This document shows, one piece after another, positions 31,479-40,941 of a DNA stretch of 64,000 bases. The notes under the pieces were generated by a model that was given only the letters and a program-made list of their open reading frames with translations, did not search any database and was not told where the DNA came from. The stretch covers positions 16,567-80,566 of the forward strand of contig JBAVEL010000186.1 in the NCBI GenBank assembly GCA_049587715.1, given 5' to 3'. The position numbers and the translations under genes were made by a program. Numbering within the stretch: position 1 is the stretch's first letter; every line of letters starts with the position of its first letter. The DNA comes from Bacteroidota bacterium (GTDB taxonomy: Bacteria > Bacteroidota > Ignavibacteria > UBA10030 > UBA6906).

Positions 31479-34400
31479 TCAGCGGCGGCTGCGCGCCGCG
31501 TCGTAGAGGTTGGATTCCCGGGCCGATTCTCTTCCTCCACCCGTCCATTCGGAGGCCCGCAGGGAAACGGTTCTGAATTCCCCGAGTCCCGCTGCACCGT
31601 GGTCGTCCTGGGCCCCCGCCAGCACCGTGATACCCCAGGCGGAATCCGGCACGCCCAGATAGCGGAGGGGAAGGGAAAACGCGACCCGCGCCCTCTGCGC
31701 GTCCCCGATGGGGGAGACCGCATCACCGGGAGCGGGTACGTAGGCGGCCAGGGTCTCCCCCGAGGCGTCCTCCACGCGGACTCCTCCCCCCACGAGTATC
31801 AGACGTTCATACGCATCCCGCGCATCCATCAGAAAGCCGGCATTGGCGGGGATACTGACCGCGCCCGAGCCGGGGATGCCGTCTGTGTCGATTGCGATGG
31901 CCGCGAGGGTGAGCTGGAACCCGTACTCGGGGTGCCAGCCGGGGTCGGCCAGGGACCGGAACCGAAGCTCCAGGTATGCGTTGGAGTCGTCCCGGCTGAG
32001 GGTGAATCCCGTGAGATCCAGACAGCCCCCCCGGAAGGCCGGATGGGTGGGGTAGGTGTACCTGCCCAGCGTCTCTCCCCCCGGACCCACCCCTGTGTCG
32101 TCCCCCTCGGGGTCCTCCAGTCGCACAAGCACCCGCGCGGCCGGGTTGGCTGCTTTGACCTGTGCCAGATTGAGGATCGGATGGGTGGGGCCGCCCACGG
32201 ATCTCAGGCCGGGAAGGAGCATGGGAACGGCGAACCTCAGACCCCCGAGGGCAGGATCCGGGTGACGGAGGGTTTCGGATACTTCAGCCGGGGTGGTCTT
32301 CTGTCCATTGACGTAACAGGTTATCTCTCTCCCTCTCAACACGACTCTCAGCTCGCCCCGGGGCGGGATGGCGACCTTGAGGCCCAACTCCGCTCCGTCC
32401 TCCCCCGGGAGCGAGAGCTCCACCGTACCCCCCCGGCGGAGGTTCCTCCCCCACAGGAGGACCGTTTGCGTGGGTCCGTCCCGCAGGATCTCCACAGGGA
32501 CCCCCCGTCCGTCCAGGTTCAGAACAGCCCTCACGTTTCCCAGGGCCCGGGGGATCCGTGGCCGGAGCCGTATTCTGTGGTGGAGAATCTCCACCCGGGC
32601 CCCCAGGTAGTCGTCGTAGAAGTTCCGTATGAACTCGGCCAGATTCCAGGCCTGCGAGAAGGTTCCGGAAAGCTCCGGTTCCTGCGCCCCCTCCCTGGGG
32701 AGAGCATCCAGGAGCTCCGACTGCGTCCCCACTGCTCCCCGGTCCAGGATCTGGGCGGCTGCGTTCGAGGTGAGCCGGAAGGCCGTTTCCTGAAGGGAGA
32801 AGCGGCAGAGCTCCGCAACCACGGGTCCCGAGAGCCATGTCCAGACGGTTCCGTTGTGGTAGGCCGCGTCGGGGGGGTAGAAGGGCTGGTTCCTGTGATA
32901 CGGATGGAAGCCCGGGTCCCCCTGCCACAGGGAGGCCACTCCGTGCTCATAGGTGAGGTTTCCCACAATCCGGGCGAGCGCCTCCGCCCGTACGGAGTCG
33001 GGGAGAAGCTCCATCGTGAAGATGGCGTTGGGCCTCAGACGAACGTCCGCTGAGCCGTCGCGGTTCAGGTGGTCGGCGATCCCCGCCGGCGTGATGAAGC
33101 GTTCCCGGAAGGATGCCCCGACACGTGTGTGGAGGCTGTCCCACCGCCGGGCGGATGGGGCATCCCCCATCCGTGTGGCGAACCAGACCCCCGCCTCCAG
33201 CTGGCGCGACCAGAGGGCCTGTATGTCGTTTGCCCTGTCGCCGCGCGCACTCCAGGGGCCGTCGGGACCGACCGCATCCATCCAGGTCTCGGCATCTCCG
33301 TGGATGAGGAATCCCGAGCTGTCGGTGTGCCGGCGGATGGTTCCTTCGATGGACCGGATCACCGTGGGATAAACGGCAAGGGCGAATACCGAGTCGCCGG
33401 AGCGGAGGACGTAGTCCCGCGCCGTCTCCACAAAGCGGGGGGTCCCGTCCGCCGTGTTGTAGGCCTTCTCCCGCGCGGTCACGATGTTGGGAATGCGGCC
33501 CTCATCGGGGGAGGCGGGGTCCGTGTTCTGAAACCCCGCGAACGAAAGGAGGATTTCCCTGGCCAGACTCCAGCGACCCGTGACCAGCGCCGCTCCGGGG
33601 AGCGAGATGAAGGTATCCCTACCCCAGTAGGAGTTGAACCAGGGGAGCCCCGCAAAGATGCCGCGCCCGCGCTGATTCATAACCAGCGCATCCAGGGACA
33701 GCTTCGCCCAGGCAAGAGCGCGATCGAAGCGGGGGTCCGAGGTGCGGACCCCGGTGGCCGAAAGGAGGGCTTCCATCCGGTCGCGGCGGCGTTTCTCCAG
33801 CATCCCCACGCGCCCGGGTACGGAGCGGAGGAGCGCTTCGGCCTGCTCCCGGGATCCGCCCCCCGCAAAGACGAAAAGGTGCAGCCGGGCATTGCGCCGG
33901 GAGAGCCGGATGAGCGCCCTGCGGGCCTCCGCCCCCTCTCCCTCCTGCACGCGCGCAGGGAGGCATGCGGGCCCCCCTGCGGAGAGCCAGCGTCCCGGCG
34001 GCGGGGTCCCGGGTGCCTCTGCCCCGGTGCCCGAGAAATCCATGGAGGCCGTGTTCTCCGAGAGGAACACACCGGCCTGTGCGGGATATGTCCCGCCTCC
34101 CGGGTAGACCTCCACGCCCGCCTGGACGGGACGCGGCGCCTGGAGGCGCACGTAGAAGACAGGGAGGGAATCCGCCATTCTCACCTCCTCGGTGATTCCC
34201 CCGCCGTACCGGCGCACCAGGCGGTCGGGGAATACCGTGACCTCCACGGCGTCCGCCCTGTCCAGAGGGCGTCCCTCCAGGAAAAGCCGGTAGTCGTCCA
34301 GAAGCTCGGTCCCGTCCACGTTGAACCCCTGCCAGCCGCTCCGGGAGCGCCCGTGGGTTTCCCCGTACAGGAACGCGGATTGTCCGTTCGTGAAGGAGAA

Positions 34401-34517
34401 CTCCCGGGAGGTTCCCTCCACACGAATGCCCAGTTCATCCAGGGTGATTGCGCTCCCGCCCCCTTCAGCCGGCGCTGCAAGGAGAGAGAAGAGGGAGAGG
34501 ATGAGTGCTTTCATCAC
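31479..34517 (-). CDS. Secreted amylo-alpha-1,6-glucosidase-family (glycogen-debranching GDE_C/GH133-like) protein with extra C-terminal domains
   Basis: Signal peptide MMKALILSLFSLLAAPAEG. GLPWFNSYWGRDTFISLPG and YHNGTVWTWLSGP are characteristic of the GDE C-terminal (alpha/alpha)6 barrel. Confidence 0.75.
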   Translation of the reverse strand: MMKALILSLFSLLAAPAEGGGSAITLDELGIRVEGTSREFSFTNGQSAFLYGETHGRSRSGWQGFNVDGTELLDDYRLFLEGRPLDRADAVEVTVFPDRLVRRYGGGITEEVRMADSLPVFYVRLQAPRPVQAGVEVYPGGGTYPAQAGVFLSENTASMDFSGTGAEAPGTPPPGRWLSAGGPACLPARVQEGEGAEARRALIRLSRRNARLHLFVFAGGGSREQAEALLRSVPGRVGMLEKRRRDRMEALLSATGVRTSDPRFDRALAWAKLSLDALVMNQRGRGIFAGLPWFNSYWGRDTFISLPGAALVTGRWSLAREILLSFAGFQNTDPASPDEGRIPNIVTAREKAYNTADGTPRFVETARDYVLRSGDSVFALAVYPTVIRSIEGTIRRHTDSSGFLIHGDAETWMDAVGPDGPWSARGDRANDIQALWSRQLEAGVWFATRMGDAPSARRWDSLHTRVGASFRERFITPAGIADHLNRDGSADVRLRPNAIFTMELLPDSVRAEALARIVGNLTYEHGVASLWQGDPGFHPYHRNQPFYPPDAAYHNGTVWTWLSGPVVAELCRFSLQETAFRLTSNAAAQILDRGAVGTQSELLDALPREGAQEPELSGTFSQAWNLAEFIRNFYDDYLGARVEILHHRIRLRPRIPRALGNVRAVLNLDGRGVPVEILRDGPTQTVLLWGRNLRRGGTVELSLPGEDGAELGLKVAIPPRGELRVVLRGREITCYVNGQKTTPAEVSETLRHPDPALGGLRFAVPMLLPGLRSVGGPTHPILNLAQVKAANPAARVLVRLEDPEGDDTGVGPGGETLGRYTYPTHPAFRGGCLDLTGFTLSRDDSNAYLELRFRSLADPGWHPEYGFQLTLAAIAIDTDGIPGSGAVSIPANAGFLMDARDAYERLILVGGGVRVEDASGETLAAYVPAPGDAVSPIGDAQRARVAFSLPLRYLGVPDSAWGITVLAGAQDDHGAAGLGEFRTVSLRASEWTGGGRESARESNLYDAARSRR

Positions 34518-35719
34518 GGCTTCGTTTCCCAGAATTGAATGAGGATGTCGTCGATGCGCGCCCGCCAGTTGACCCAGTTATGCCCTTCGGGGTATTCCGC
34601 GTACGTGCAGGGCACCCCCCGGTCCTGGAGGATGTCCGCCATCCTCCGGGTGTGGACCCGTGCATCCCGGATGGTTCCCGTATCCAGATAGAACCGGATC
34701 CCCAGGGGGGGGGCCGCTGCCATCAGCCGCATCATCCGCTCTTCATCCCACCAGTAGGCCGGACTCTGTGCCGCGCAAAGCCCGAACAGGTCGGGCCTCC
34801 GGAAGGCGGCGTATGTTGCGATGAGGCCCCCCAGGGAGGCCCCCATGACGGCGTGCTCGGCGGGAGCCGAAAGAACCCTGTACCGGGCCGATAGTGCCGG
34901 CAGGACTTCCTCCGTCAGGTACGCTACAAACGTGTCGCTCATGGCGTAGTCCTGCATCCGCATGCTTGTGCGGGAATCTCCGGGATCGGTCCGCGGATCC
35001 AGAAAGACCGCCAGGATGGGTCTGATCTTCCCCTCATCCAAGAGGTTGTCCAGCACCGTCTGCATGAAGCCCAGAGAAAGGTACTCCCCGCCGTCCATCA
35101 CGAGAAGGAGACCCAGCGAGTCCTCCTCCCCGCTCCGGGAGGGGGGGAGGTAGACCGTTGCGGGGTGGGTCCTCCCGAGGAGGGAGCTCCTGATGTGCAG
35201 GGTGTCCAGACGGCCCCGTCTCACCCCGCTCCGGGAGAGGACCCAGGGAGACGACACATAGTCCGGCATCCGGATCTCGGAGTTCGGGCCGTACCCCCCC
35301 TGGGCCTGCAGGGTGTTGAAGGGGTCCAGCATCCAGACCGAATCCACGACGAGCTTGTACTCGAAGCGGGCGGCCCGGGGTACGGAAACGGCCAGATGAA
35401 ACAGGTCTGTACCCCCAATGCGGCGCATGGTGTCGGCCGAGGGGTTCCAGCCGTTGAGATCGCTCGGCACGGAGACCCGCCCTCCCACCCCCGAGTAGAG
35501 GAAATGCACGACGGTATCCTCCACCACGGGGAGGCCCCGGACGGCGATCCCCCGTGTGAAGGCCGCCGCCAGGGAATCCCGTTCCGCCGGATTCTCAAGC
35601 CGCTCGATCCGCTCCAGGAAGAGGGAGAAAGCCCGAGGGGACTCGGGCATCCGGGCTCGCGCCGGAGGAGGAAGGGCTCCCGCGACGAGCCAGGCAAGCA
35701 GCAGGACTGCTGTTGCCAT
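34514..35719 (-). CDS. Esterase-family alpha/beta hydrolase with N-terminal CBM48/Ig-like domain (paralog 1)
   Basis: Track ORF 34514..36166 trimmed to MATAVLLLAWLVAGALPPPA (signal). DLNGWNPSAD is a CBM48-like motif. Nucleophile elbow MGASLGG. Enterochelin-esterase/putative-esterase fold. Confidence 0.75.
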   Translation of the reverse strand: MATAVLLLAWLVAGALPPPARARMPESPRAFSLFLERIERLENPAERDSLAAAFTRGIAVRGLPVVEDTVVHFLYSGVGGRVSVPSDLNGWNPSADTMRRIGGTDLFHLAVSVPRAARFEYKLVVDSVWMLDPFNTLQAQGGYGPNSEIRMPDYVSSPWVLSRSGVRRGRLDTLHIRSSLLGRTHPATVYLPPSRSGEEDSLGLLLVMDGGEYLSLGFMQTVLDNLLDEGKIRPILAVFLDPRTDPGDSRTSMRMQDYAMSDTFVAYLTEEVLPALSARYRVLSAPAEHAVMGASLGGLIATYAAFRRPDLFGLCAAQSPAYWWDEERMMRLMAAAPPLGIRFYLDTGTIRDARVHTRRMADILQDRGVPCTYAEYPEGHNWVNWRARIDDILIQFWETKP

Positions 35720-35747
35720 GGGGGATGCCGCCCTCGCCGGCCGCACC

Positions 35748-36983
35748 TCAGGGTCTCCAGCCGAAAAACCGGCGGAGGATGTCAGGGAGTTCGTTCCGCC
35801 ACCTCCCCCAGCTGTGCCCGTCGGGGAATTCCCTGTAGGCGAGGGGGTATCCCCGCTCTTCGAGCACCTGCCGCAGACGGCGATTCCCGGCGATGAAATC
35901 GCCCTCGCGGGCCCGTGCCGCTCCTCCCACGGAGGTCTCGTACGTACCGCAGTCGAGATAGAGCGAAACATCCGGCCGGGGGAGACGTGCCGCCAGGGAG
36001 GCCAGCGTGTCGGACCGGAACGAGACGTACCCCGACTGGCTTGCCGCATTGGCGAACACATCCGGCCGGGAAAGTGCAAGCCCCAGGGATATGAGCCCGC
36101 CGTACGACGCTCCCATCGCCAGGCGGGCGGAAGGGCGTGGGATGGTGCGGAAGAGGCTGTCCACAAGCGGAACCAGCTCGTCGGCGACGAAGGAGATGTA
36201 GCTGCCGTTCAGCCCGTATTCCGTGGTGCGGTCGGTCCCGGGACCGGGAGGGGGGACGATGAAGACGGCTGCAAGCGGCGGGACCGCTTCCGCCCCATGC
36301 ATGGCGTCGAGCACGAGGACCGCCTGCGCAAACCTCAGGTAGTCCCCTCCGTCCTGGAAGTAGGCCACCCCACAGCGGAAGGAGGCCCCGGCGTATCCCG
36401 GCGGCGTGTACACGTGCACCTCGTGGGCATAGCCGAGATGGGCGCTCTTTACTCTGAGCGTGGAGAGACTCCCCCCGGGCGCCTCCGGGGCCGCGTCCGG
36501 CTCCGGAGCCCTGCGGAAGCCCGGCATGGCAAGCTCCGAGTTGGGCCCGTATCCTCCCGGCGCCGTGCGGGGGTTCTCGGGATCAAGAATGAAGGAGCCG
36601 TTCCCCAGAAGGAGCTTGTAATCCAGCCGCGCCTCGCACGGGAAGCCCATGCGGAGATGGAAGAGGTCGGTCCCCGGAAGCCGCCGGAAGGGGATCCGGG
36701 AACTCCACCCGGTCATGTCTCCCGTCAGAAAGACGCTGTCGGTGCTTCCACGGTAGAGGAAGGTCGCCGTGTCTCCCGCCGCATCCACGAGGGGAAGGCG
36801 TCCCCTGGCACTCCGGCTCCAGAGCCCCTCGACCAGACGCTCCCGTTCCTCCCCGGGGGGCGCCGCCTCGGCGCCCGCCAGCAGCGCGGGGAACCCGGGT
36901 TCAACGCCCTGCGGTCGTGTGGCGGCGCATCCGGCCGCACTCAGGAGGGCGGGGATCAGGAGGAGGAAGACGGTGGACTTCAC
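35748..36983 (-). CDS. Esterase-family alpha/beta hydrolase lipoprotein with N-terminal CBM48/Ig-like domain (paralog 2)
   Basis: GTG start. Lipobox LLSAAGC. GDMTGWSS module. Nucleophile elbow MGASYGG. Same architecture as the adjacent paralog. Confidence 0.75.
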   Translation of the reverse strand: MKSTVFLLLIPALLSAAGCAATRPQGVEPGFPALLAGAEAAPPGEERERLVEGLWSRSARGRLPLVDAAGDTATFLYRGSTDSVFLTGDMTGWSSRIPFRRLPGTDLFHLRMGFPCEARLDYKLLLGNGSFILDPENPRTAPGGYGPNSELAMPGFRRAPEPDAAPEAPGGSLSTLRVKSAHLGYAHEVHVYTPPGYAGASFRCGVAYFQDGGDYLRFAQAVLVLDAMHGAEAVPPLAAVFIVPPPGPGTDRTTEYGLNGSYISFVADELVPLVDSLFRTIPRPSARLAMGASYGGLISLGLALSRPDVFANAASQSGYVSFRSDTLASLAARLPRPDVSLYLDCGTYETSVGGAARAREGDFIAGNRRLRQVLEERGYPLAYREFPDGHSWGRWRNELPDILRRFFGWRP

Positions 36984-37036
36984 CTTCGGGCATGCGCCTG
37001 TGGATGGCGGAATATACGCACGCGGGATGCGGGAAG

Positions 37037-37044
37037 CAATCGGC
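37037..37044. repeat. Target-site duplication copy 1 (CAATCGGC)
   Basis: 8-bp direct repeat abutting IRL. The identical 8-mer abuts IRR at 40053-40060. Confidence 0.65.
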
Positions 37045-37079
37045 GGTACTGTCCTAATTAGGGGGAGGTTGTCCTAAAT
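37045..37079. repeat. Left terminal inverted repeat (IRL, 35 bp; contains two tgtcctaa sub-repeats)
   Basis: See the mobile_element entry. Confidence 0.75.
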
Positions 37080-37185
37080 CGGTGGGAGTTCCACGATCCT
37101 CGCGCCATACATGAAACGCGAGTTTAGAATCCAACCAGCTTGGAAGGCTGGTTTTCTTCATGACCGCTTCACTCCCACCGATTCA

Positions 37186-38025
37186 TTATGCGGCCGCCCT
37201 CTGTGTTGCCCAACCCGACAAACCCGTCCATGTCCAAATGTGCTTTGTTAGACCCGCCTCCATCGCGGGGGTAACGCGTAGCGTCTCGTGGACCCTGGCG
37301 AAGTTGTAATGCCAGAAGTACAGCGCCAGAGCCGCTTTTAGGTTCTCCCATTTCTTGCTGTAGGCGTTGGTGAGACGCGCAAACCGCTTCATCCCTATCC
37401 TCATGCTGAGATTCTGCCTCTCAATGTGGGAGGTTGAAATGTGCTTCCGCTTAGGCTTGCCGAAGACGGGTATTATTTCCACCCGGACAATGCCTGCCGG
37501 ACTGTACCGCCTTTCAGGGCTTCTATCCACCTGGGCGTAACTCTTCGCAACCTGCCCGTAGTCAATATCTGCCCCCCAAATCCTATCCACAACATCGCGG
37601 TAGGGCGAGAAGGCATCGGTTGAAAGTTGGAATCGTGTCTTGACGCGGGCGGCCACATCCCGCATGAATACCTCTGCGGTCTGGACGGTCCGCTTCCCAA
37701 GTCTGAAAGACGGGATGAGCTTGGAGTCGCTGTCCATAGCCACAAAGCAATACTGATCGCCCGTAAACTCGTCTTGGTTTTCGGGGCGAATGAAACGCTG
37801 GTGCTTCCCTACATAGGTCCAGATTTCATCAACTTGGAGTCTCTTCACGCTCAGGTCCCGCATTTCAGAGTCCATGAACGCCTCACACGCTTCCCCGGCT
37901 GATACGAGAAGCCGCATGATCGTGTCCCGGTGAATCCCGGATAGGCGTTCGGTGGATCGGATTGAGTTCCCTTCGGCCAAGAGGGAAAGGGCAAGGGCCT
38001 TCTTTTCAGCAGACAGTACGTTCAT
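37186..38025 (-). CDS. IS1-family-like transposase (single ORF: N-terminal HTH + DDE catalytic domain)
   Basis: N-terminal HTH MNVLSAEKKALALSLLAEGNSIRSTERLSGIHRDTIMRLL. Catalytic region KRLQVDEIWTYVGKH...CFVAMDSDSKL...ISTSHIERQNLSMRIGMKRFARLTNAYSKKWENLKAALALYFWHYNF. Its spacing parallels E. coli IS1 InsB (MDEQWGYVG...[25 protein letters not shown]). GGAG RBS. An IS1595-like assignment is not excluded. Confidence 0.75.
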   Translation of the reverse strand: MNVLSAEKKALALSLLAEGNSIRSTERLSGIHRDTIMRLLVSAGEACEAFMDSEMRDLSVKRLQVDEIWTYVGKHQRFIRPENQDEFTGDQYCFVAMDSDSKLIPSFRLGKRTVQTAEVFMRDVAARVKTRFQLSTDAFSPYRDVVDRIWGADIDYGQVAKSYAQVDRSPERRYSPAGIVRVEIIPVFGKPKRKHISTSHIERQNLSMRIGMKRFARLTNAYSKKWENLKAALALYFWHYNFARVHETLRVTPAMEAGLTKHIWTWTGLSGWATQRAAA

Positions 38026-38048
38026 CGCGAGTCTCCGTCAGATTCCGA

Positions 38049-38077
38049 TTTGACTTTCCCCCGCGATGAACGTATAT
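38049..38077 (+). promoter_or_regulatory. Sigma70-like promoter TTGACT-N17-TATATT facing away from the transposase start
   Basis: ttgactttcccccgcgatgaacgtatatt lies immediately upstream (on the plus strand) of a structured ~190-nt region ending in an intrinsic terminator. Confidence 0.5.
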
Positions 38078-38084
38078 TAGGTCA

Positions 38085-38275
38085 GGGTCTATGTCCGTTC
38101 ACGCGGGCATGGATTTCAGGGCTTCGAAGGTGGTCACACACCTGAGAAGCCCGCTTGTAAGCGGGCCTACTGTGGTATTTTGAGCTGCTTACTCATACAC
38201 CCATCCTTTCCCGAAGCGTTGCAGCGCTTCGATTGAGGTTTGACAGAGGCGCTCTTAGTGAGCGCCTTTTTATTT
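38085..38275 (+). ncRNA. Candidate small RNA (~190 nt) inside the mobile element, between the transposase 5-prime end and the 128-aa gene 3-prime end
   Basis: Bounded by the TTGACT-N17-TATATT promoter and an intrinsic terminator (aggcgctc ttagt gagcgcct + ttttattt). Two further hairpins lie inside (gcccgcttgtaagcgggc, cgaagcgttgcagcgcttcg). The only ORF is 30 codons without a convincing RBS. Confidence 0.3.
38247..38275 (+). terminator. Intrinsic terminator (8-bp GC stem + TTTTATTT) for the candidate sRNA
   Basis: AGGCGCTCttagtGAGCGCCTttttattt. Oriented for plus-strand transcription. Overlaps the stop codon of the convergent 128-aa gene. Confidence 0.5.
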
Positions 38276-38656
38276 GAGGTCATAGACCCCTCGGGCCGCC
38301 CGCTTAAGTCTTGCACTCTTCTTATCACATTCCTGGGACAGAATAGCACCAAGAGCCCTCGCCTTGTCCTTGTTATCGCCCAGACTGATCCCCTTTTCCT
38401 CCACCGCGAACTTCAAGACCTCTTCATTCGTCACATGTCTCCCCATCCTATGAATCAGCTCGATAGTCGCATCTACAACACGGCCTCGGATCGTGTTCGA
38501 GCCTGGGCGTGGCGGAGAGACTGAGACGGCCAACGCTCCTGTCTCGCCCCCAGACTCGCCCTTGCGTATCGCGATCAGTTGAAGAAGAAGCTCCCTTTCC
38601 CTTTCAATCTCTGTAAGTCGGGCCTCCAGGACTTCGGTCGAAAGTGTGGCACACAT
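38270..38656 (-). CDS. Hypothetical 128-aa protein (N-terminal coiled coil, possible C-terminal DNA-binding fold), cargo of the mobile element
   Basis: ATG at 38656 with AGGAG RBS. Its own TTGACA-N17-TATACT promoter lies upstream. Sequence is MCATLSTEVLEARLTEIERERELLLQLIAIRKG...TIRGRVVDATIELIHRMGRHVTNEEVLKFAVEEKGISLG... No family recognised. Confidence 0.6.
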   Translation of the reverse strand: MCATLSTEVLEARLTEIERERELLLQLIAIRKGESGGETGALAVSVSPPRPGSNTIRGRVVDATIELIHRMGRHVTNEEVLKFAVEEKGISLGDNKDKARALGAILSQECDKKSARLKRAARGVYDLK

Positions 38657-38683
38657 GTTTAGGTTCTCCTATTAGCCGGGTAT

Positions 38684-38712
38684 AGTATACAAAAAAACCC
38701 TTTACTTGTCAA
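38684..38712 (-). promoter_or_regulatory. Sigma70-like promoter TTGACA-N17-TATACT for the 128-aa gene (minus strand)
   Basis: Reverse complement reads cTTGACAagtaaagggtttttttgTATACTataccc, about 28 nt upstream of the ATG. Confidence 0.6.
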
Positions 38713-38748
38713 GCCCACCACGGTCCGCATTTTAGGCTTCCTATGGAC

Positions 38749-38776
38749 GCCGCAATGCATTATGCCGCAATCAATT
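38749..38776. promoter_or_regulatory. Two direct 13-mer repeats GCCGCAATnnATT between divergent promoters (candidate operator)
   Basis: acGCCGCAATgcATTatGCCGCAATcaATTgtgg lies between the 128-aa gene promoter and the panA-like promoter. Confidence 0.35.
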
Positions 38777-38784
38777 GTGGTTGC

Positions 38785-38813
38785 TTGCTTTTTGTGTTTC
38801 GCTGTTGTATATT
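38785..38813 (+). promoter_or_regulatory. Promoter TTGCTT-N17-TATATT for the Panacea-domain operon
   Basis: ttgcttgctttttgtgtttcgctgttgtatatt. The transcript would start ~25 nt before the strong AGGAGG RBS of the 38844 gene. Confidence 0.45.
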
Positions 38814-38843
38814 GGGTTGTAGAACATACCAGGAGGTCACAAC

Positions 38844-39314
38844 ATGTATCCCATGAAGGCCATCGCCAACTTCTTCATTGATAGGGCGATGAAGGAGGGG
38901 GCCGAAATGAGCCCTATGAAGATCCAAAAGCTGTTATATTTCGCTTACGGGATATACCACGTCAAAACGGGGGAACCTTTGTTTAGCGATAGGTTCGAAG
39001 TATGGAAATACGGTCCCGTTATCTCTGAGCTTTACCATTTGCTCAAGGGATACGGAAGCGATCAGATCGACAGGCTTTTGCCGGATTTTGACATGGCAAC
39101 TATGAGAGTTGTCACGCCGACGATCCCGAGGGAAGAAAAGGAATTACTCGTCTTTCTAACTGAGTTTTGGGAGGTCTACAGGGGGTATTCGCCTATTCGG
39201 CTCTCAAATGCAACCCATCTTCCTGGAACACCGTGGGATGAGGCGAATCGAGCAGGCGAGAAGGTCATCAGCGATCAACGCATGGATGCCTACTTCAGCG
39301 GCTTGGTGCAATGA
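38844..39314 (+). CDS. Panacea-domain (DUF4065) protein, PanA-like putative antitoxin
   Basis: AGGAGG RBS 7 nt upstream. MSPMKIQKLLYFAYGIYHVKTGEPLFSDRFEVWKYGPVISELYHLLKGYG matches the conserved Panacea core (SocA/PanA antitoxins). Stop overlaps the next start (ATGA). Confidence 0.8.
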   Translation: MYPMKAIANFFIDRAMKEGAEMSPMKIQKLLYFAYGIYHVKTGEPLFSDRFEVWKYGPVISELYHLLKGYGSDQIDRLLPDFDMATMRVVTPTIPREEKELLVFLTEFWEVYRGYSPIRLSNATHLPGTPWDEANRAGEKVISDQRMDAYFSGLVQ

Positions 39315-39661
39315 AACTCATGGGAGTCCCGAAGTTACCCCCAGGTCCAGAAGCGCCCACGCTCCAAACACAGCAGGAAATGGAGCTTTACCATTGTAAG
39401 GAGTCGGACCTTAGACTAAGGGGGATAGCACAGGACATTGAGGAAAGAAAGACCTACGCTCGAAAAACCTTCAGATTAGCAGGCTGGTGGCTCTTTGGGG
39501 TGTTTGTCTTGCTTATCCTGGGTGGGCTCAAAATGGAGCCTCTCATGTTCCAATTGCCCGAGAGCGTATTGTTGGCTGTGATCGGGGGAACAACTCTAAA
39601 CATACTGGGGGTCTTTGTGTTCGTAATGAAGTACCTCTTCGATGTGAAGAGGGAGGTATAG
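39311..39661 (+). CDS. Small (116 aa) protein with a soluble N-terminal region and two C-terminal TM helices; candidate cognate toxin of the Panacea antitoxin
   Basis: Translationally coupled to the Panacea gene. TM1 FRLAGWWLFGVFVLLILGGL, TM2 SVLLAVIGGTTLNILGVFVFVM. No family recognised. Confidence 0.55.
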   Translation: MKLMGVPKLPPGPEAPTLQTQQEMELYHCKESDLRLRGIAQDIEERKTYARKTFRLAGWWLFGVFVLLILGGLKMEPLMFQLPESVLLAVIGGTTLNILGVFVFVMKYLFDVKREV

Positions 39662-39696
39662 AAAAAACCCCGAAGCTGTTTGCAGCAACTTCGGGG
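39662..39696 (-). terminator. Perfect 8-bp GC hairpin (CCCCGAAG/CTTCGGGG) with the T-run on the minus strand, immediately after the 116-aa gene stop
   Basis: Plus strand aaaaaaCCCCGAAGctgtttgcagcaaCTTCGGGGtcgg. The U-tract exists only for minus-strand transcription. It may also serve as a 3-prime stabiliser of the plus-strand operon. Confidence 0.45.
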
Positions 39697-39766
39697 TCGG
39701 AAACCGTTCCGCCCGGCTAACTGATGGGGCAAGCTTCGAGGCGGAGGGCTCAAGGTATTGCTCTCC

Positions 39767-39795
39767 AATATACAAAACTCTGAGCCCGAAAGCAA
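39767..39795 (-). promoter_or_regulatory. Possible convergent promoter TTGCTT-N17-TATATT (minus strand), same architecture as the panA-like promoter
   Basis: Reverse complement reads gcTTGCTTtcgggctcagagttttgTATATTgg. It shares ttgtatattgg with the 38785-38813 promoter. It would drive a short transcript ending at the 39662-39696 terminator. Confidence 0.3.
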
Positions 39796-39984
39796 GCCCC
39801 CGCCACTCATCGAAAGGGCCTCTTCTATGGCCATTTCAGGGTCTCGGCAGGGCTATAGGCTCATTTTCGTTGCCTATATCACGCTGAGAAATAGGAAGCG
39901 GATCTACGCAAGAGATTATGGCTTGCGGGCGTTCGCGATTTGGGTGAGGGACGATTAGTCTCTGACCCATCTGAGGCAAAACAC

Positions 39985-40021
39985 GGGACCCCGCATTGCT
40001 GTTCGGGGTCCCGTTCTATTT
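39985..40021. terminator. Bidirectional hairpin terminator (GGGACCCCG/CGGGGTCCC) just inside IRR
   Basis: 9-bp perfect stem. gttctattt follows on the plus strand and gtgttttg follows on the minus strand. Confidence 0.45.
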
Positions 40022-40052
40022 AGGACAAAACCCCTCTAATTAGGACAGCACC
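40018..40052. repeat. Right terminal inverted repeat (IRR, 35 bp)
   Basis: atttaggacaaaacccctctaattaggacagcacc is the inverse complement of IRL at 30/35 positions. Confidence 0.75.
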
Positions 40053-40060
40053 CAATCGGC
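40053..40060. repeat. Target-site duplication copy 2 (CAATCGGC)
   Basis: 8-bp direct repeat abutting IRR. Confidence 0.65.
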
Positions 40061-40150
40061 CCTCTGTTTGATTTTCGTGGCACCAGGCGTTATCTTGAGC
40101 CGGGCGCACGCGGCGGGGGCGCGTATCGGGGACCATCAGACGAACGCTGC

Positions 40151-40531
40151 ATGGAGCAGGAACACAGGCCGGGAGTTCTCCTCTGCGAGGACCAGGAGCA
40201 GATCCTGGAGCTGATGGTCCTTGTCTTCGAGATGGAGGGCTTCGAAGTCCACCGGGCCAGGGACGGCGAGGAGGGTCTGGCTGTCCTGGGAGCGGCAATG
40301 GAACGGATTGACGCCCTGGTGACGGACCTGGGCCTTCCCCGCCTGGAGGGGCTGGAGTTGATCGCCCGGGCCCGCGCGATCAAGCCCTCCCTCAAGATCA
40401 TAGGATCCAGCGGCTACGGACGGGCGAACGTGCGGGAGGAGGTCCTGGCGGCGGGAGCAGACGATTTCATGGGGAAGCCGATTGCAGCGAAGGATCTCGT
40501 GGACAGGGTGAAGGGACTCCTGGGGCTGTGA
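40151..40531 (+). CDS. Single-domain response regulator (CheY-like receiver)
   Basis: REC-domain features: phospho-acceptor region [11 protein letters not shown] and lysine in FMGKP. Confidence 0.8.
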
Positions 40532-40941
40532 AGACCGCTACGGAGTACCTCTGGTTCGAAACTCCCGCCCGGAGAGACTACGTCAACATCACCGCCGAGG
40601 TGGAGCGCATCGTCGCCCGGAGCGGGGTGACGGAGGGGATGGCGCTCGTTTCCGCCATGCACATCACCTCCGCGGTGTACGTCAACGACGCGGAGGAGGG
40701 GCTCATCCGGGACATTGACGAGTGGCTGGAGAAGCTCGCTCCGTTCGGGAAGGACTACCGGCACCACCGGACCGGCGAGACAAACGGGGATGCGCACCTG
40801 AAGAGCCTCCTCCTGCACCACGAGGTGATTCTCCCCGTGACCGCCGGGAAACTGGACCTCGGGACCTGGCAGCAGGTCTACTACGCGGAATTCGACGGGA
40901 GGAGGAGAAAGCGTGTGGTGGTGAAGGTGATCGGACAATGA
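40528..40941 (+). CDS. YjbQ/UPF0047-family protein (secondary thiamine-phosphate synthase-like)
   Basis: GTG start overlapping the upstream stop. [45 protein letters not shown] matches the YjbQ family. Confidence 0.75.

What the first reader, a model, noticed from the sequence alone, without database searches (positions are those of the whole stretch)
37037..40060. 3-kb low-GC IS1-family-like transposon-like element with cargo, intact IRs and an 8-bp target-site duplication
Structure:
- An interior of 3008 bp is bounded by 35-bp imperfect inverted repeats matching at 30/35 positions. Each contains two tgtcctaa sub-repeats.
- Both IRs are flanked by the direct repeat CAATCGGC.
- Removing the element and one repeat copy reconstitutes a ~150-bp divergent intergenic region between an esterase gene and a response-regulator gene.

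Contents:
- One transposase ORF whose N-terminal HTH and DE.W.YVG / IERxNL regions parallel IS1 InsA/InsB.
- Three coding passengers, plus a candidate small RNA and terminators.

Composition is clearly AT-richer than the ~2/3-GC flanks. Intact IRs and TSD argue for a recent, possibly still mobile insertion. IS-with-passenger elements of this family are unusual.
Basis: partly seen in the sequence, partly recalled or inferred. Interest (0 to 1): 0.8.

Follow-up and report, generated by a model that had tools for sequence, protein, structure and literature searches.

The report
IS1-like transposon carrying a toxin-antitoxin cassette
A 3-kb jumping gene of the IS1 family has landed between two host genes, bringing a four-gene PanA-type toxin-antitoxin cassette; it is a genuine, intact element but one ordinary member of a very large, little-described group of cargo-carrying IS1 relatives.

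Summary
Window 37045-40052 (3008 bp, 52.5% GC against 66-68% around it) is bounded by 35-nt inverted repeats (30/35). Each repeat holds two TGTCCTAA motifs 20 nt apart, and the element is flanked by a perfect 8-bp duplication, CAATCGGC.

It encodes one intact single-ORF IS1-family DDE transposase with an InsA-type HTH and an InsB-type catalytic core (D66, D137, E202).

The cargo is a conserved four-gene module:
- a helical, possibly DNA-binding protein (ORF128);
- a Panacea-domain antitoxin (PanA);
- an overlapping two-transmembrane-helix toxin candidate;
- a 43-aa protein.

This module also occurs elsewhere without any transposase.

Across 160 related loci, 105 relatives have both ends delimited. 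They carry a near-invariant 17-nt terminus (GGTAGTGTCCTAATTTG), and 85 of them have perfect 8-9-bp duplications. Nearly all are 2.1-6.9 kb, so cargo is the rule in this clade, not "unusual". That cargo is rich in toxin-antitoxin, restriction-modification and defence genes.

The window's subclade adds two features: doubled terminal motifs, and a conserved structured transposase leader whose 15-bp hairpin buries the start codon.

Verdict: a new member of a known kind (a transporter IS) and probably still mobile. No empty-site allele was found.

The parts
37037..37044 (.). Left copy of the 8-bp target-site duplication, CAATCGGC
   Evidence: It abuts the terminal repeat. 8-bp duplications are seen in 85 of 105 relatives.
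37045..37079 (+). Terminal inverted repeat at the transposase-proximal end. The outer site is GGTACTGTCCTAATTAG and the inner site TTGTCCTAAAT, with TGTCCTAA at 37050 and 37070.
   Evidence: The doubled motif is shared with subclade relatives L082-L087.
37133..37160 (+). Terminator-like hairpin plus T-run, facing inward just inside the end. This is weak evidence.
   Evidence: The fold is -12.2 kcal/mol with z = -1.8.
37186..38025 (-). Transposase gene, 279 aa. It is a single-ORF IS1-family DDE enzyme with an N-terminal HTH (about residues 9-46) and invariant D66, D98, D137 and E202.
38017..38074 (-). 15-bp hairpin in the transposase leader (arms 38060-38074 and 38017-38031) that buries the AUG
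   Evidence: I14; -29.1 kcal/mol, z = -4.75. The structure is kept with different sequence and G-U pairs in L082 and L083, and in L084 by my reading of the sequence printed.
38026..38269 (-). Conserved, highly structured 244-nt transposase leader. It includes a conserved block GAAAGGxxxGGTGTATGAGTAA..GCTxAAAATA, which reads as a Shine-Dalgarno site plus a short ORF ending at 38167.
   Evidence: (z = -6.9). It travels with the transposase, not with the upstream gene (L083).
38050..38277 (+). Candidate antisense RNA of about 190 nt. It has the promoter-like site TTGACT-17-TATATT (38050-38078) and an intrinsic terminator (38245-38269 plus a T-run).
   Evidence: z = -6.4. I read the promoter-like and terminator elements as conserved in L082, L083 and L084 from the sequences. 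Expression was not tested.
38270..38656 (-). ORF128: an N-terminal long helix, a disordered linker and a C-terminal three-helix domain. It is a possible DNA-binding regulator of the cassette.
   Evidence: HARE-HTH, E 0.09; no significant fold match. Homologues occur beside PanA and beside the transposase.
38657..38843 (.). Divergent promoter region. P(ORF128) is TTGACA-17-TATACT (38712..38684, - strand). P(panA) is TTGCTT-17-TATATT, at about 38783-38811 by my own count of the sequence. Two 15-nt direct repeats lie at 38749-38778.
   Evidence: (D17). The blocks are conserved in four loci.
38844..39314 (+). PanA: a Panacea (SocA-like, DUF4065) domain antitoxin, 156 aa
   Evidence: Pfam PF13274 at 67 bits against a cut-off of 25.7. 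NCBIfam SocA_antitoxin gives E 6e-29.
39311..39661 (+). ORF116, the candidate PanT toxin. It has a charged N-terminal half and two C-terminal transmembrane helices (about residues 53-80 and 84-107). Its start overlaps the panA stop (ATGA).
   Evidence: It always follows a Panacea gene in L084, L162-L167.
39666..39698 (.). GC-rich hairpin after the toxin gene. It is terminator-like and usable on both strands.
   Evidence: Its only Rfam match, anti-hemB, is sub-threshold (21 bits against 49.5).
39827..39958 (+). ORF43: a conserved 43-aa protein (..GYxLIFVAYITLRNxKRIYAxxYGLRAFAIWV..) and the fourth gene of the cassette
   Evidence: It is conserved at protein level in L084, L124 and L162-L167. No family matches it.
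39984..40013 (-). Inward-facing terminator-like hairpin just inside the far end
   Evidence: -23.6 kcal/mol, z = -4.3, followed by GUGUUUUG on the - strand.
40018..40052 (-). Terminal inverted repeat at the cargo-side end, with outer and inner TGTCCTAA sites
40053..40060 (.). Right copy of the 8-bp target-site duplication, CAATCGGC

Best explanation
The feature is a 3008-bp transporter insertion sequence: a single IS1-family transposase plus passenger genes between one pair of inverted repeats. It inserted into the 151-bp divergent promoter region between an esterase gene and a response-regulator gene of a high-GC host.

Inferred mechanism of movement:
- The N-terminal HTH of the 279-aa DDE transposase binds the TGTCCTAA-containing sites. 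This subclade has two such sites per end, 20 nt apart.
- The D66/D137/E202 centre cuts at the GG termini and joins them to target cuts staggered by 8 bp, which produces CAATCGGC on both sides.

Inferred control of the transposase:
- A 15-bp hairpin buries the AUG.
- The leader is conserved and highly structured, with a possible antisense RNA.
- Terminator-like hairpins sit just inside both ends.

The cargo is a self-contained four-gene PanA-type toxin-antitoxin-like module. PanA is inferred to neutralise the overlapping two-helix membrane toxin by direct binding. ORF128 probably regulates the divergent promoters. The role of ORF43 is unknown.

The module would stabilise the element (addiction), act in phage defence, or both.

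Shown here: the anatomy, the homologies, and the conservation across relatives. Inferred only: DNA binding, toxicity, neutralisation, regulation, and present-day mobility.
For: - Boundaries: the repeats and the duplication, and a GC step that coincides with them.
- Family behaviour: 105 relatives have both conserved termini and 85 have perfect 8-9-bp duplications.
- Transposase: IS1 homology, with the HTH, D and E motifs aligned to E. coli InsA and InsB. The acidic residues are invariant in 120 homologues.
- Scale: more than 6400 homologues were found, and 1078 clusters at 50% identity match at E<=1e-30.
- Doubled end motifs are shared by L082-L087.
- Start-codon hairpin: 11-15 bp in the window, L082 and L083 against about 6 in shuffles, with compensatory and G-U changes. 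L084 has a 13-bp equivalent by my reading.
- Leader conservation.
- Cargo: the Panacea domain scores 67 bits. The PanA-ORF116 pair is conserved with overlapping or abutting genes in independent loci. The hydropathy profile shows two transmembrane segments.
- Published precedent: PanA antitoxins neutralise small toxins that have a charged N-terminus and C-terminal transmembrane helices by depolarising the membrane, and PanAT pairs often sit near transposases (PMC8832971).
- The whole four-gene module recurs with and without the transposase.
Against: - No empty-site allele, second copy or excision product was found, so mobility is untested.
- The window transposase falls just under the curated cut-offs (23.0 against 24.1 bits in Pfam; 62.9 against 100 in NCBIfam).
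- The cargo-side end of L084, the only other element with the same cassette, could not be located.
- ORF116 has no match to any characterised toxin family. ORF128 has no significant fold match.
- The strand and function of the conserved leader RNA are unresolved.
- The start-codon hairpin is not a general feature of the wider family: mean stem 7.3 against 6.8 in controls.
Confidence: 0.85

Rival explanations
1. It is a dead relic. The element inserted in the past and can no longer move, and its cargo persists only because the toxin-antitoxin pair resists loss.
For: - There is only one copy in 64 kb.
- No empty site or sibling copy was found.
- The two repeats differ at 5 of 35 positions.
- The closest transposase in public data is only 79% identical.
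Against: - The ORF is full length with all invariant residues.
- The outer 17 nt of the ends differ at one position only.
- The duplication is perfect.
- The 15-point GC deficit has not been ameliorated.
- The regulatory hairpin is intact.
Confidence: 0.25
2. The cargo is primarily an anti-phage abortive-infection system rather than an addiction module for the element.
For: - Cargo across the family is dominated by conflict genes: methylases, a 881-aa protein with N6-methylase and Eco57I/MmeI-type methylase domains, AIPR, GmrSD, DndB, Zeta, PIN, PemK and Panacea.
- PanA matches phage protein families strongly (phrog_1281, E 5e-40).
- The module also lives without a transposase.
Against: - No PADLOC defence model matches any cargo protein beyond a weak DarG-like hit.
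- No phage challenge data exist.
- The two roles are not mutually exclusive.
Confidence: 0.4
3. It is a small IS (transposase plus leader, about 1.2 kb) that landed beside a resident PanA island. On this reading the 3-kb unit is not a single mobile element.
For: - The same four-gene module exists elsewhere without transposase or repeats.
- The leader travels with the transposase, not with ORF128 (L083).
Against: - The only inverted-repeat partner of the transposase-side end lies beyond the cargo, at 40018-40052.
- The duplication flanks the whole 3 kb.
- Low GC spans the whole 3 kb, including the cargo at 44-55%.
- Relatives confirmed by a duplication span 2.1-6.9 kb.
Confidence: 0.04
4. It belongs to the IS1595 family (also 8-bp duplications, also known for passenger genes) rather than to IS1.
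For: - The duplication is 8 bp and the element carries passenger genes.
- From general knowledge of ISfinder, the two families are related.
Against: - No IS1595 model matched the transposase at E<=0.1 in Pfam or NCBIfam, whereas the IS1 models did.
- The same Pfam IS1595 model did detect an unrelated nested transposase among the cargo proteins, so it works.
Confidence: 0.05

Closest known systems
IS1 of Escherichia coli (the classical IS1 family)
   Same: - The DDE transposase is homologous.
- The HTH aligns to InsA residues 57-90.
- The DEIW and IERQNL motifs align to InsB's DEQW and IERHNL.
- The termini begin GGTnnTG.
- The target duplication is in the 8-9-bp range.
   Different: - It has one continuous ORF instead of insA/insB' joined by a frameshift.
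- It has no InsA-type zinc-finger segment; the alignment starts at the HTH.
- It has a roughly 40-aa C-terminal extension.
- It is 3008 bp against 768 bp, and carries four passenger genes.
- It has doubled terminal motifs and a 244-nt structured leader.
Transporter IS (tIS): IS derivatives carrying passenger genes, described for IS1595 and other families (Siguier et al. 2009, cited in PMC7986276 and PMC9330008)
   Same: There is one transposase and one pair of repeats, with passenger genes unrelated to transposition inside the element. The concept fits exactly.
   Different: In this clade cargo appears to be obligatory and is dominated by toxin-antitoxin and defence genes. Whether ISfinder already lists this clade could not be checked. 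My recollection that its IS1 table has a single-ORF subgroup reaching about 4.6 kb is from memory only.
PanAT toxin-antitoxin pairs with membrane-disrupting PanT toxins (Kurata et al. 2022, PMC8832971)
   Same: - The antitoxin has a Panacea domain.
- It is followed by a small toxin with a charged N-terminus and C-terminal transmembrane helices.
- The genes overlap.
- The pair is associated with a transposase.
   Different: - This is a conserved four-gene module, with a divergent helical protein and a 43-aa protein.
- The toxin has no detectable similarity to any annotated family.
- Nothing has been tested experimentally.
Toxin-antitoxin pairs inside Tn3-family transposons (PMC7157771), and Tn7-like transposons with defence cargo (PMC8649781)
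   Same: A transposon carries toxin-antitoxin or defence genes as an integral, possibly stabilising, passenger.
   Different: The transposition machinery is entirely different, and the element is far smaller. There is no resolvase or res site and no TnsABC-type genes.
IS10/Tn10 control of transposase (fold-back inhibition and antisense RNA-OUT; from general knowledge)
   Same: A hairpin sequesters the transposase start codon, there is a candidate antisense RNA, and the ends are insulated from outside transcription.
   Different: The candidate antisense RNA here does not overlap the ribosome-binding site; it starts about 50 nt upstream of it. No expression data exist, and the sequences are unrelated.

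Membership tests
IS1 family (insertion sequences) | DDE transposase homologous to IS1 InsAB' | tested here: met
   - NCBIfam transpos_IS1 gives E 3.7e-17, and Pfam DDE_Tnp_IS1 gives E 1e-4.
- BLASTP against E. coli InsB gives E 3e-4 and against InsA E 6e-4, with the motifs aligned.
- NCBI names the identical protein an IS1 family transposase.
IS1 family (insertion sequences) | Reaches the curated score cut-offs of the family models | tested here: not met
   Pfam gives 23.0 bits against 24.1, and NCBIfam gives 62.9 bits against 100. Relatives of about 50% identity do pass the Pfam cut-off, at 30.9-35.2 bits.
IS1 family (insertion sequences) | Terminal inverted repeats beginning GGnnnTG | tested here: met
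   The ends read GGTACTG and GGTGCTG. E. coli IS1A reads GGTGATG.
IS1 family (insertion sequences) | Target-site duplication of 8-9 bp | tested here: met
   The duplication here is 8 bp. Among 85 relatives with perfect duplications, 82 are 8 bp and 3 are 9 bp.
IS1 family (insertion sequences) | Two ORFs (insA, insB') fused by programmed -1 frameshifting | tested here: not met
   There is a single 279-aa ORF spanning both the HTH and the catalytic regions.
IS1 family (insertion sequences) | N-terminal zinc finger preceding the HTH (InsA residues about 1-50) | tested here: not met
   The alignment to InsA covers only its residues 57-90, which match residues 13-46 here. The 12 residues that precede them contain no cysteine.
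IS1 family (insertion sequences) | Small size (about 0.75-1.2 kb) with no passenger genes | tested here: not met
   The element is 3008 bp with four passenger genes.
Transporter IS (tIS) | A single IS-type transposase and one pair of repeats enclosing passenger genes, flanked by a duplication | tested here: met
   (no second transposase copy in the window). The same architecture is seen in 105 relatives.
IS1595 family | ISXO2-like DDE domain (Pfam PF12762, NCBIfam transpos_IS1595) | tested here: not met
   No hit at E<=0.1.
Composite transposon | Two IS copies flanking the cargo | tested here: not met
   There is one transposase gene only (tblastn of the window), and the ends are 35-nt repeats, not IS copies.
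PanAT toxin-antitoxin systems | Antitoxin with a Panacea (DUF4065, PF13274) domain | tested here: met
   67 bits against a cut-off of 25.7, covering profile positions 1-112 of 113.
PanAT toxin-antitoxin systems | [quoted passage not shown] | tested here: met
   The genes overlap by 4 nt. The same pair is found in L084, in L162-L165 and in L166-L167, from different samples and contexts.
PanAT toxin-antitoxin systems | The partner is toxic, and PanA neutralises it by complex formation | not testable with these tools
   This requires expression assays. Only the two-transmembrane-helix architecture was shown.

The most novel reading that the evidence does not exclude
The element may be one representative of a very large clade of IS1-like transposons that has not been described as such. 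Its scale: more than 6400 clusters at 90% identity, and about 1000 clusters at 50% identity at E<=1e-30, across many phyla.

On this reading the clade would be defined by four things:
- an almost invariant 17-nt terminus, GGTAGTGTCCTAATTTG;
- a strict 8-bp duplication;
- obligatory cargo made up mainly of toxin-antitoxin, restriction-modification and defence genes, making these elements miniature shuttles for conflict systems;
- lineage-specific RNA control of the transposase (a start-codon hairpin plus an antisense RNA) and an uncharacterised accessory protein of about 100 aa in half of the members.
Probability: 0.3. Interest if true: 0.6.

Novelty: new member of a known kind. Interest (0 to 1): 0.4.

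Why it matters
For this genome, the finding marks a clean and probably recent horizontal acquisition. It splits a divergent promoter region and brings in a membrane-toxin/antitoxin cassette.

More broadly, the relatives show that a whole branch of the IS1 family behaves as minimal cargo transposons of 2-7 kb that ferry toxin-antitoxin, restriction-modification and defence genes between phyla. The termini are conserved enough to delimit these elements automatically.

That gives three practical things:
- a simple handle (the terminus plus the 8-bp duplication) for mining small defence-carrying transposons in metagenomes;
- a four-gene PanA module with two uncharacterised partners that could be tested;
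- a compact example of hairpin and antisense-RNA control of a transposase.

Tried and rejected
- **Empty-site allele.** Exact-protein look-ups of the flanking esterase, response regulator and YjbQ genes returned only contigs of the same genome from one sample (L081, L175) or nothing.
- **Context of the closest transposases.** Look-ups for P0001 and P0002 found nothing on record.
- **Rfam.** There was no family match in 36500-40600 except a sub-threshold anti-hemB hit on a terminator.
- **ORF128 fold.** The AlphaFold model has pLDDT 77. Foldseek against the PDB gave no match below E = 1, only weak winged-helix-like hits. The Pfam HARE-HTH match is only E 0.09.
- **PADLOC.** No defence system model matched.
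- **The c1 accessory protein.** This roughly 100-aa protein is common in relatives. It is absent from the window element, unrelated to ORF128 (hhalign probability 0.2), and has no PDB or Pfam match.
- **Start-codon hairpin as a family-wide trait.** Not supported outside the subclade.
- **A protein-coding reading of the leader's short ORF.** The frame is open in all four leaders, but the compensatory changes in hairpin 2 are non-synonymous, which favours RNA structure.
- **Literature.** ISMhu11 is not in the searchable library, and no paper describing this clade was found.
- **Plasmid relatives.** They are about 42% identical (Acidiphilium, Mesorhizobium) and lack the TGTCCTAA termini, so they belong to a more distant branch.

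Full report

Yes. The repeat finder reports arms at 37045-37079 and 40018-40052: 35 nt, 86% complementary, and the longest inverted pair in the region. Each arm contains TGTCCTAA twice, 20 nt apart. The 17-nt terminal motif GGTRCTGTCCTAATTAG occurs only at these two ends in the whole 64-kb window, against 0.04 matches expected by chance.

CAATCGGC abuts both arms, at 37037-37044 and 40053-40060. The 8-mer alone is not rare, with 6 copies against 3.1 expected. An identical 8-mer at these two fixed positions, however, has a chance of about 3e-5.

The 3008-bp unit is 52.5% GC, against 67.5% and 66.9% in the 5 kb on either side. It is the only part of the window below 60% GC.

Removing it and one repeat copy leaves 151 bp between the start of a divergently oriented esterase gene (36983, - strand; Pfam Esterase, 108 bits) and a response-regulator receiver gene (40151, + strand; 78.5 bits).

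**2. The transposase**

The 279-aa ORF at 37186-38025 (- strand) matches two family models:

| Model | E-value | Score | Curated cut-off |
|---|---|---|---|
| NCBIfam transpos_IS1 | 3.7e-17 | 62.9 bits | 100 |
| Pfam DDE_Tnp_IS1 | 1e-4 | 23.0 bits | 24.1 |

No IS1595 model matches it. The identical protein is in NCBI as 'MAG: IS1 family transposase [Bacteroidota bacterium]' on an 80,880-bp contig.

I compared it with E. coli K-12 IS1A, fetched:
- InsA's HTH (residues 57-90) aligns to residues 13-46.
- InsB's DEQWGYVG and IERHNLNLR align to DEIWTYVG and IERQNLSMR.

The protein is a single-ORF fusion of an InsA-type HTH with an InsB-type catalytic core. It has no frameshift and no zinc-finger segment.

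In an alignment of 120 homologues, D66, D98, D137 and E202 are invariant. I take D66, D137 and E202 as the catalytic triad, by analogy with other DDE enzymes; this is an inference.

IS1A begins GGTGATG and this element begins GGTACTG and GGTGCTG.

**3. The family**

The transposase has more than 6400 homologues among 90%-identity clusters. Among 50%-identity representatives it has 18,061 matches, 1078 of them at E<=1e-30.

I fetched 80 genomic loci and 80 metagenomic loci from many phyla, with transposases 45-63% identical to the query. My scripts found the following:
- Almost every locus has one TGTCCTAA upstream and one TTAGGACA downstream of the gene.
- The consensus terminus is GGTAGTGTCCTAATTTG(A), with 80-99% conservation per position over 17 nt and no conservation beyond that.
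- Of 105 loci with both ends delimited, 85 have a perfect duplication at exactly the predicted position: 82 of 8 bp and 3 of 9 bp.
- Those confirmed by a duplication run from 2110 to 6856 bp. The smallest motif-defined unit is 1724 bp and the median is 3216 bp.

The transposase gene needs only about 0.84 kb, so every confirmed element carries at least 1.2 kb of other sequence. This settles the duplication question by family behaviour. It also overturns the idea that cargo is unusual here.

Cargo is very variable: 141 sequence clusters among 69 elements. A Pfam scan of 104 cargo proteins found:
- C5, N4/N6 and N6 DNA methylases;
- a 881-aa protein with N6-methylase and Eco57I/MmeI-type methylase domains;
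- Zeta toxin, PemK/MazF, PIN and Panacea;
- AIPR, GmrSD, DndB, Vsr, HNH, DUF3800, KilA-N and IrrE-type peptidase.

This is a conflict-system repertoire.

A more distant relative on an Acidiphilium plasmid (42% identity) sits next to a RES-Xre toxin-antitoxin pair but lacks these termini.

**4. The window's own subclade**

The closest loci with DNA are L082-L087, with transposases 61-63% identical. They share the doubled terminal motif, with an outer GGTACTGTCCT.. site and an inner TTGTCCTAA site 20 nt further in, at both ends. L083 and L085 show 8-bp duplications (GTTTTTTT and AAGGGGGA). Two sites per end, two helical turns apart, suggest two transposase-binding sites per end; this is an inference.

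The 244 nt between ORF128 and the transposase are about 72-75% identical among the window, L082, L083 and L084. That is at least as conserved as the proteins. In L083 this stretch follows a different upstream gene, so it belongs to the transposase module.

The stretch folds far better than shuffled sequence on either strand (z = -6.9 and -6.4), and several hairpins show compensatory changes.

The clearest element is a 15-bp hairpin with arms at 38060-38074 and 38017-38031 (-29.1 kcal/mol, z = -4.75) that contains the AUG. L082 (11 bp) and L083 (13 bp) keep a hairpin at the same place with different sequence, including G-U pairs that work only on the transposase strand. L084 has a 13-bp equivalent by my reading of the sequence printed. 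This is start-codon occlusion of the kind known from IS10 (general knowledge). It is not seen across the wider family.

On the opposite strand there is a promoter-like TTGACT-17-TATATT (38050-38078) and a canonical terminator (38245-38269 plus a T-run). From the sequences, I read both elements as conserved in all four leaders.

Which strand is functional is unresolved. A short ORF ending MSK(Q/V)LKI.. with a good ribosome-binding site is also conserved, but the compensatory changes in hairpin 2 are non-synonymous, which favours RNA structure. Rfam has no match.

Both ends carry inward-facing terminator-like hairpins. The one at 37133-37153 is weak; the one at 39984-40013 gives -23.6 kcal/mol.

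**5. The cargo**

- *PanA* (38844-39314) is a Panacea/SocA-type antitoxin, at 67 bits against a cut-off of 25.7.
- *ORF116* starts at the ATGA overlap with the PanA stop (39311). It has a charged N-terminal half and two hydrophobic segments at about residues 53-80 and 84-107. That is the architecture reported for the membrane-depolarising PanT toxins (PMC8832971). It has only nine detectable homologues, and in every locus with context it follows a Panacea gene.
- *ORF128* (38270-38656, - strand) has 15 homologues. It is predicted as one long helix, a disordered linker and a three-helix domain (pLDDT 77). It has no significant PDB match and only a marginal HARE-HTH hit.
- *ORF43* (39827-39958) is conserved at protein level.

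The four genes form one module. ORF125/128 is divergent from PanA-toxin-ORF43. The module recurs with both promoters conserved (TTGACA-17-TATACT for ORF128 and TTGCTT-17-TATATT for panA) in two settings:
- in L162-L167, with no transposase and no terminal motifs;
- in L084, L169 and L170, next to a subclade transposase.

ORF128 homologues are also found directly upstream of a transposase where no Panacea gene is nearby. So the module is a pre-existing unit that this transposon lineage has captured.

**6. How it most likely works**

The statement is given under the best explanation. Shown here: the boundaries, the duplication, the homologies, the conservation and the RNA structures. Inferred only: DNA binding, catalysis, toxicity, neutralisation, regulation and current mobility.

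**7. Comparison with what is known, and novelty**

By transposase homology, terminus and duplication, this is an IS1-family element. It fails the classical definition on five counts: the frameshifted two-ORF layout, the zinc finger, the size, the absence of passengers, and (narrowly) the curated model cut-offs.

It fits the published category of transporter IS, meaning IS derivatives that carry passenger genes (PMC7986276, PMC9330008). From memory only, ISfinder lists a single-ORF IS1 subgroup reaching about 4.6 kb; I could not check this.

Toxin-antitoxin genes inside transposons are known (Tn3 family, PMC7157771). So is defence cargo on transposons (Tn7-like, PMC8649781). The proximity of PanAT pairs to transposases has also been noted (PMC8832971).

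The window element is therefore a new member of a known kind. What may be under-described is the scale and uniformity of the clade, namely its invariant terminus, its obligatory conflict-gene cargo and its leader RNA. I found no paper on that.

**8. Limits**

- No empty site, second copy or expression data were found.
- The cargo-side end of L084 was not found.
- Some element boundaries in my script are heuristic; 20 of the 105 lack a perfect duplication, partly because doubled ends were mis-delimited.
- Logan contigs of the same sample break inside the transposase (37375) and 107 nt to the right of the element (40167). This is uninformative.

Noticed in passing
L001-L080, e.g. L004:4477-4782 (-), L028:6819-7100 (+): A conserved protein of about 100 aa (..TVWxGxVxVF..CYAWS..KRRYxAVLHxPPVDSPEKAVRAAIV) occurs in 36 of 69 family elements. 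In half of them it lies immediately downstream of the transposase gene in the same orientation; in the other half it lies upstream on the opposite strand. It has no Pfam or PDB match and is unrelated to ORF128. It may be an accessory factor of the family, and it is absent from the window element.
   Followed up: partly
P0146-P0293; L049, L060, L075: Many 50%-identity representatives of the transposase are 530-670 aa long. The IS1-like domain sits in the C-terminal half, behind an N-terminal extension of about 300 aa that has no Pfam match.
   Followed up: partly
L162:3945-5651, L166:3966-5778 (also L163-L165, L167): The same four-gene module (125-aa helical protein, divergent from PanA, the 2-TM protein and the 43-aa protein) occurs in other genomes with no transposase and no TGTCCTAA termini. 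In L162 it lies between trp biosynthesis, DNA-alkylation-repair and methylase genes.
   Followed up: partly
window 38167-38283 (- strand); L082, L083, L084 leaders: A short reading frame ending ..CMSK(Q/V)LKI.. with a good ribosome-binding site is open in all four subclade leaders, and gene callers annotate it as 38-45 aa. Its N-terminal part is not conserved as protein. It could be a leader peptide or a by-product of RNA structure.
   Followed up: partly
85 duplications in L001-L161: The target duplications show a weak symmetric bias: T is depleted at positions 1-3, A is depleted at positions 6-8, and G is favoured at position 8. This hints at a loose target preference.
   Followed up: no
L173 (Acidiphilium multivorum plasmid NZ_CP041717.1, 246811-248531): A cultured-organism relative of the transposase (42% identity) lies directly beside a RES-domain toxin and an Xre/MbcA antitoxin pair. 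Its termini differ from the TGTCCTAA type.
   Followed up: partly
window 33909-37375 and 40167 onward; L081, L175: Short-read contigs from run SRR28011736 are 100% identical to the window over the parts compared. They break inside the transposase gene (37375) and 107 nt to the right of the element (40167). This could reflect repeats or strain heterogeneity in that sample.
   Followed up: no
window 34514-36983 (- strand): Two tandem paralogous esterase-family genes (411 and about 401 aa) lie immediately to the left of the insertion. The insertion separates their promoter region from the response-regulator and YjbQ genes.
   Followed up: no
window 38749-38778: Two tandem 15-nt direct repeats (GCCGCAATGCATTAT and GCCGCAATCAATTGT) lie between the divergent ORF128 and panA promoters. 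They are partly conserved in three other loci and are candidate operator sites.
   Followed up: partly
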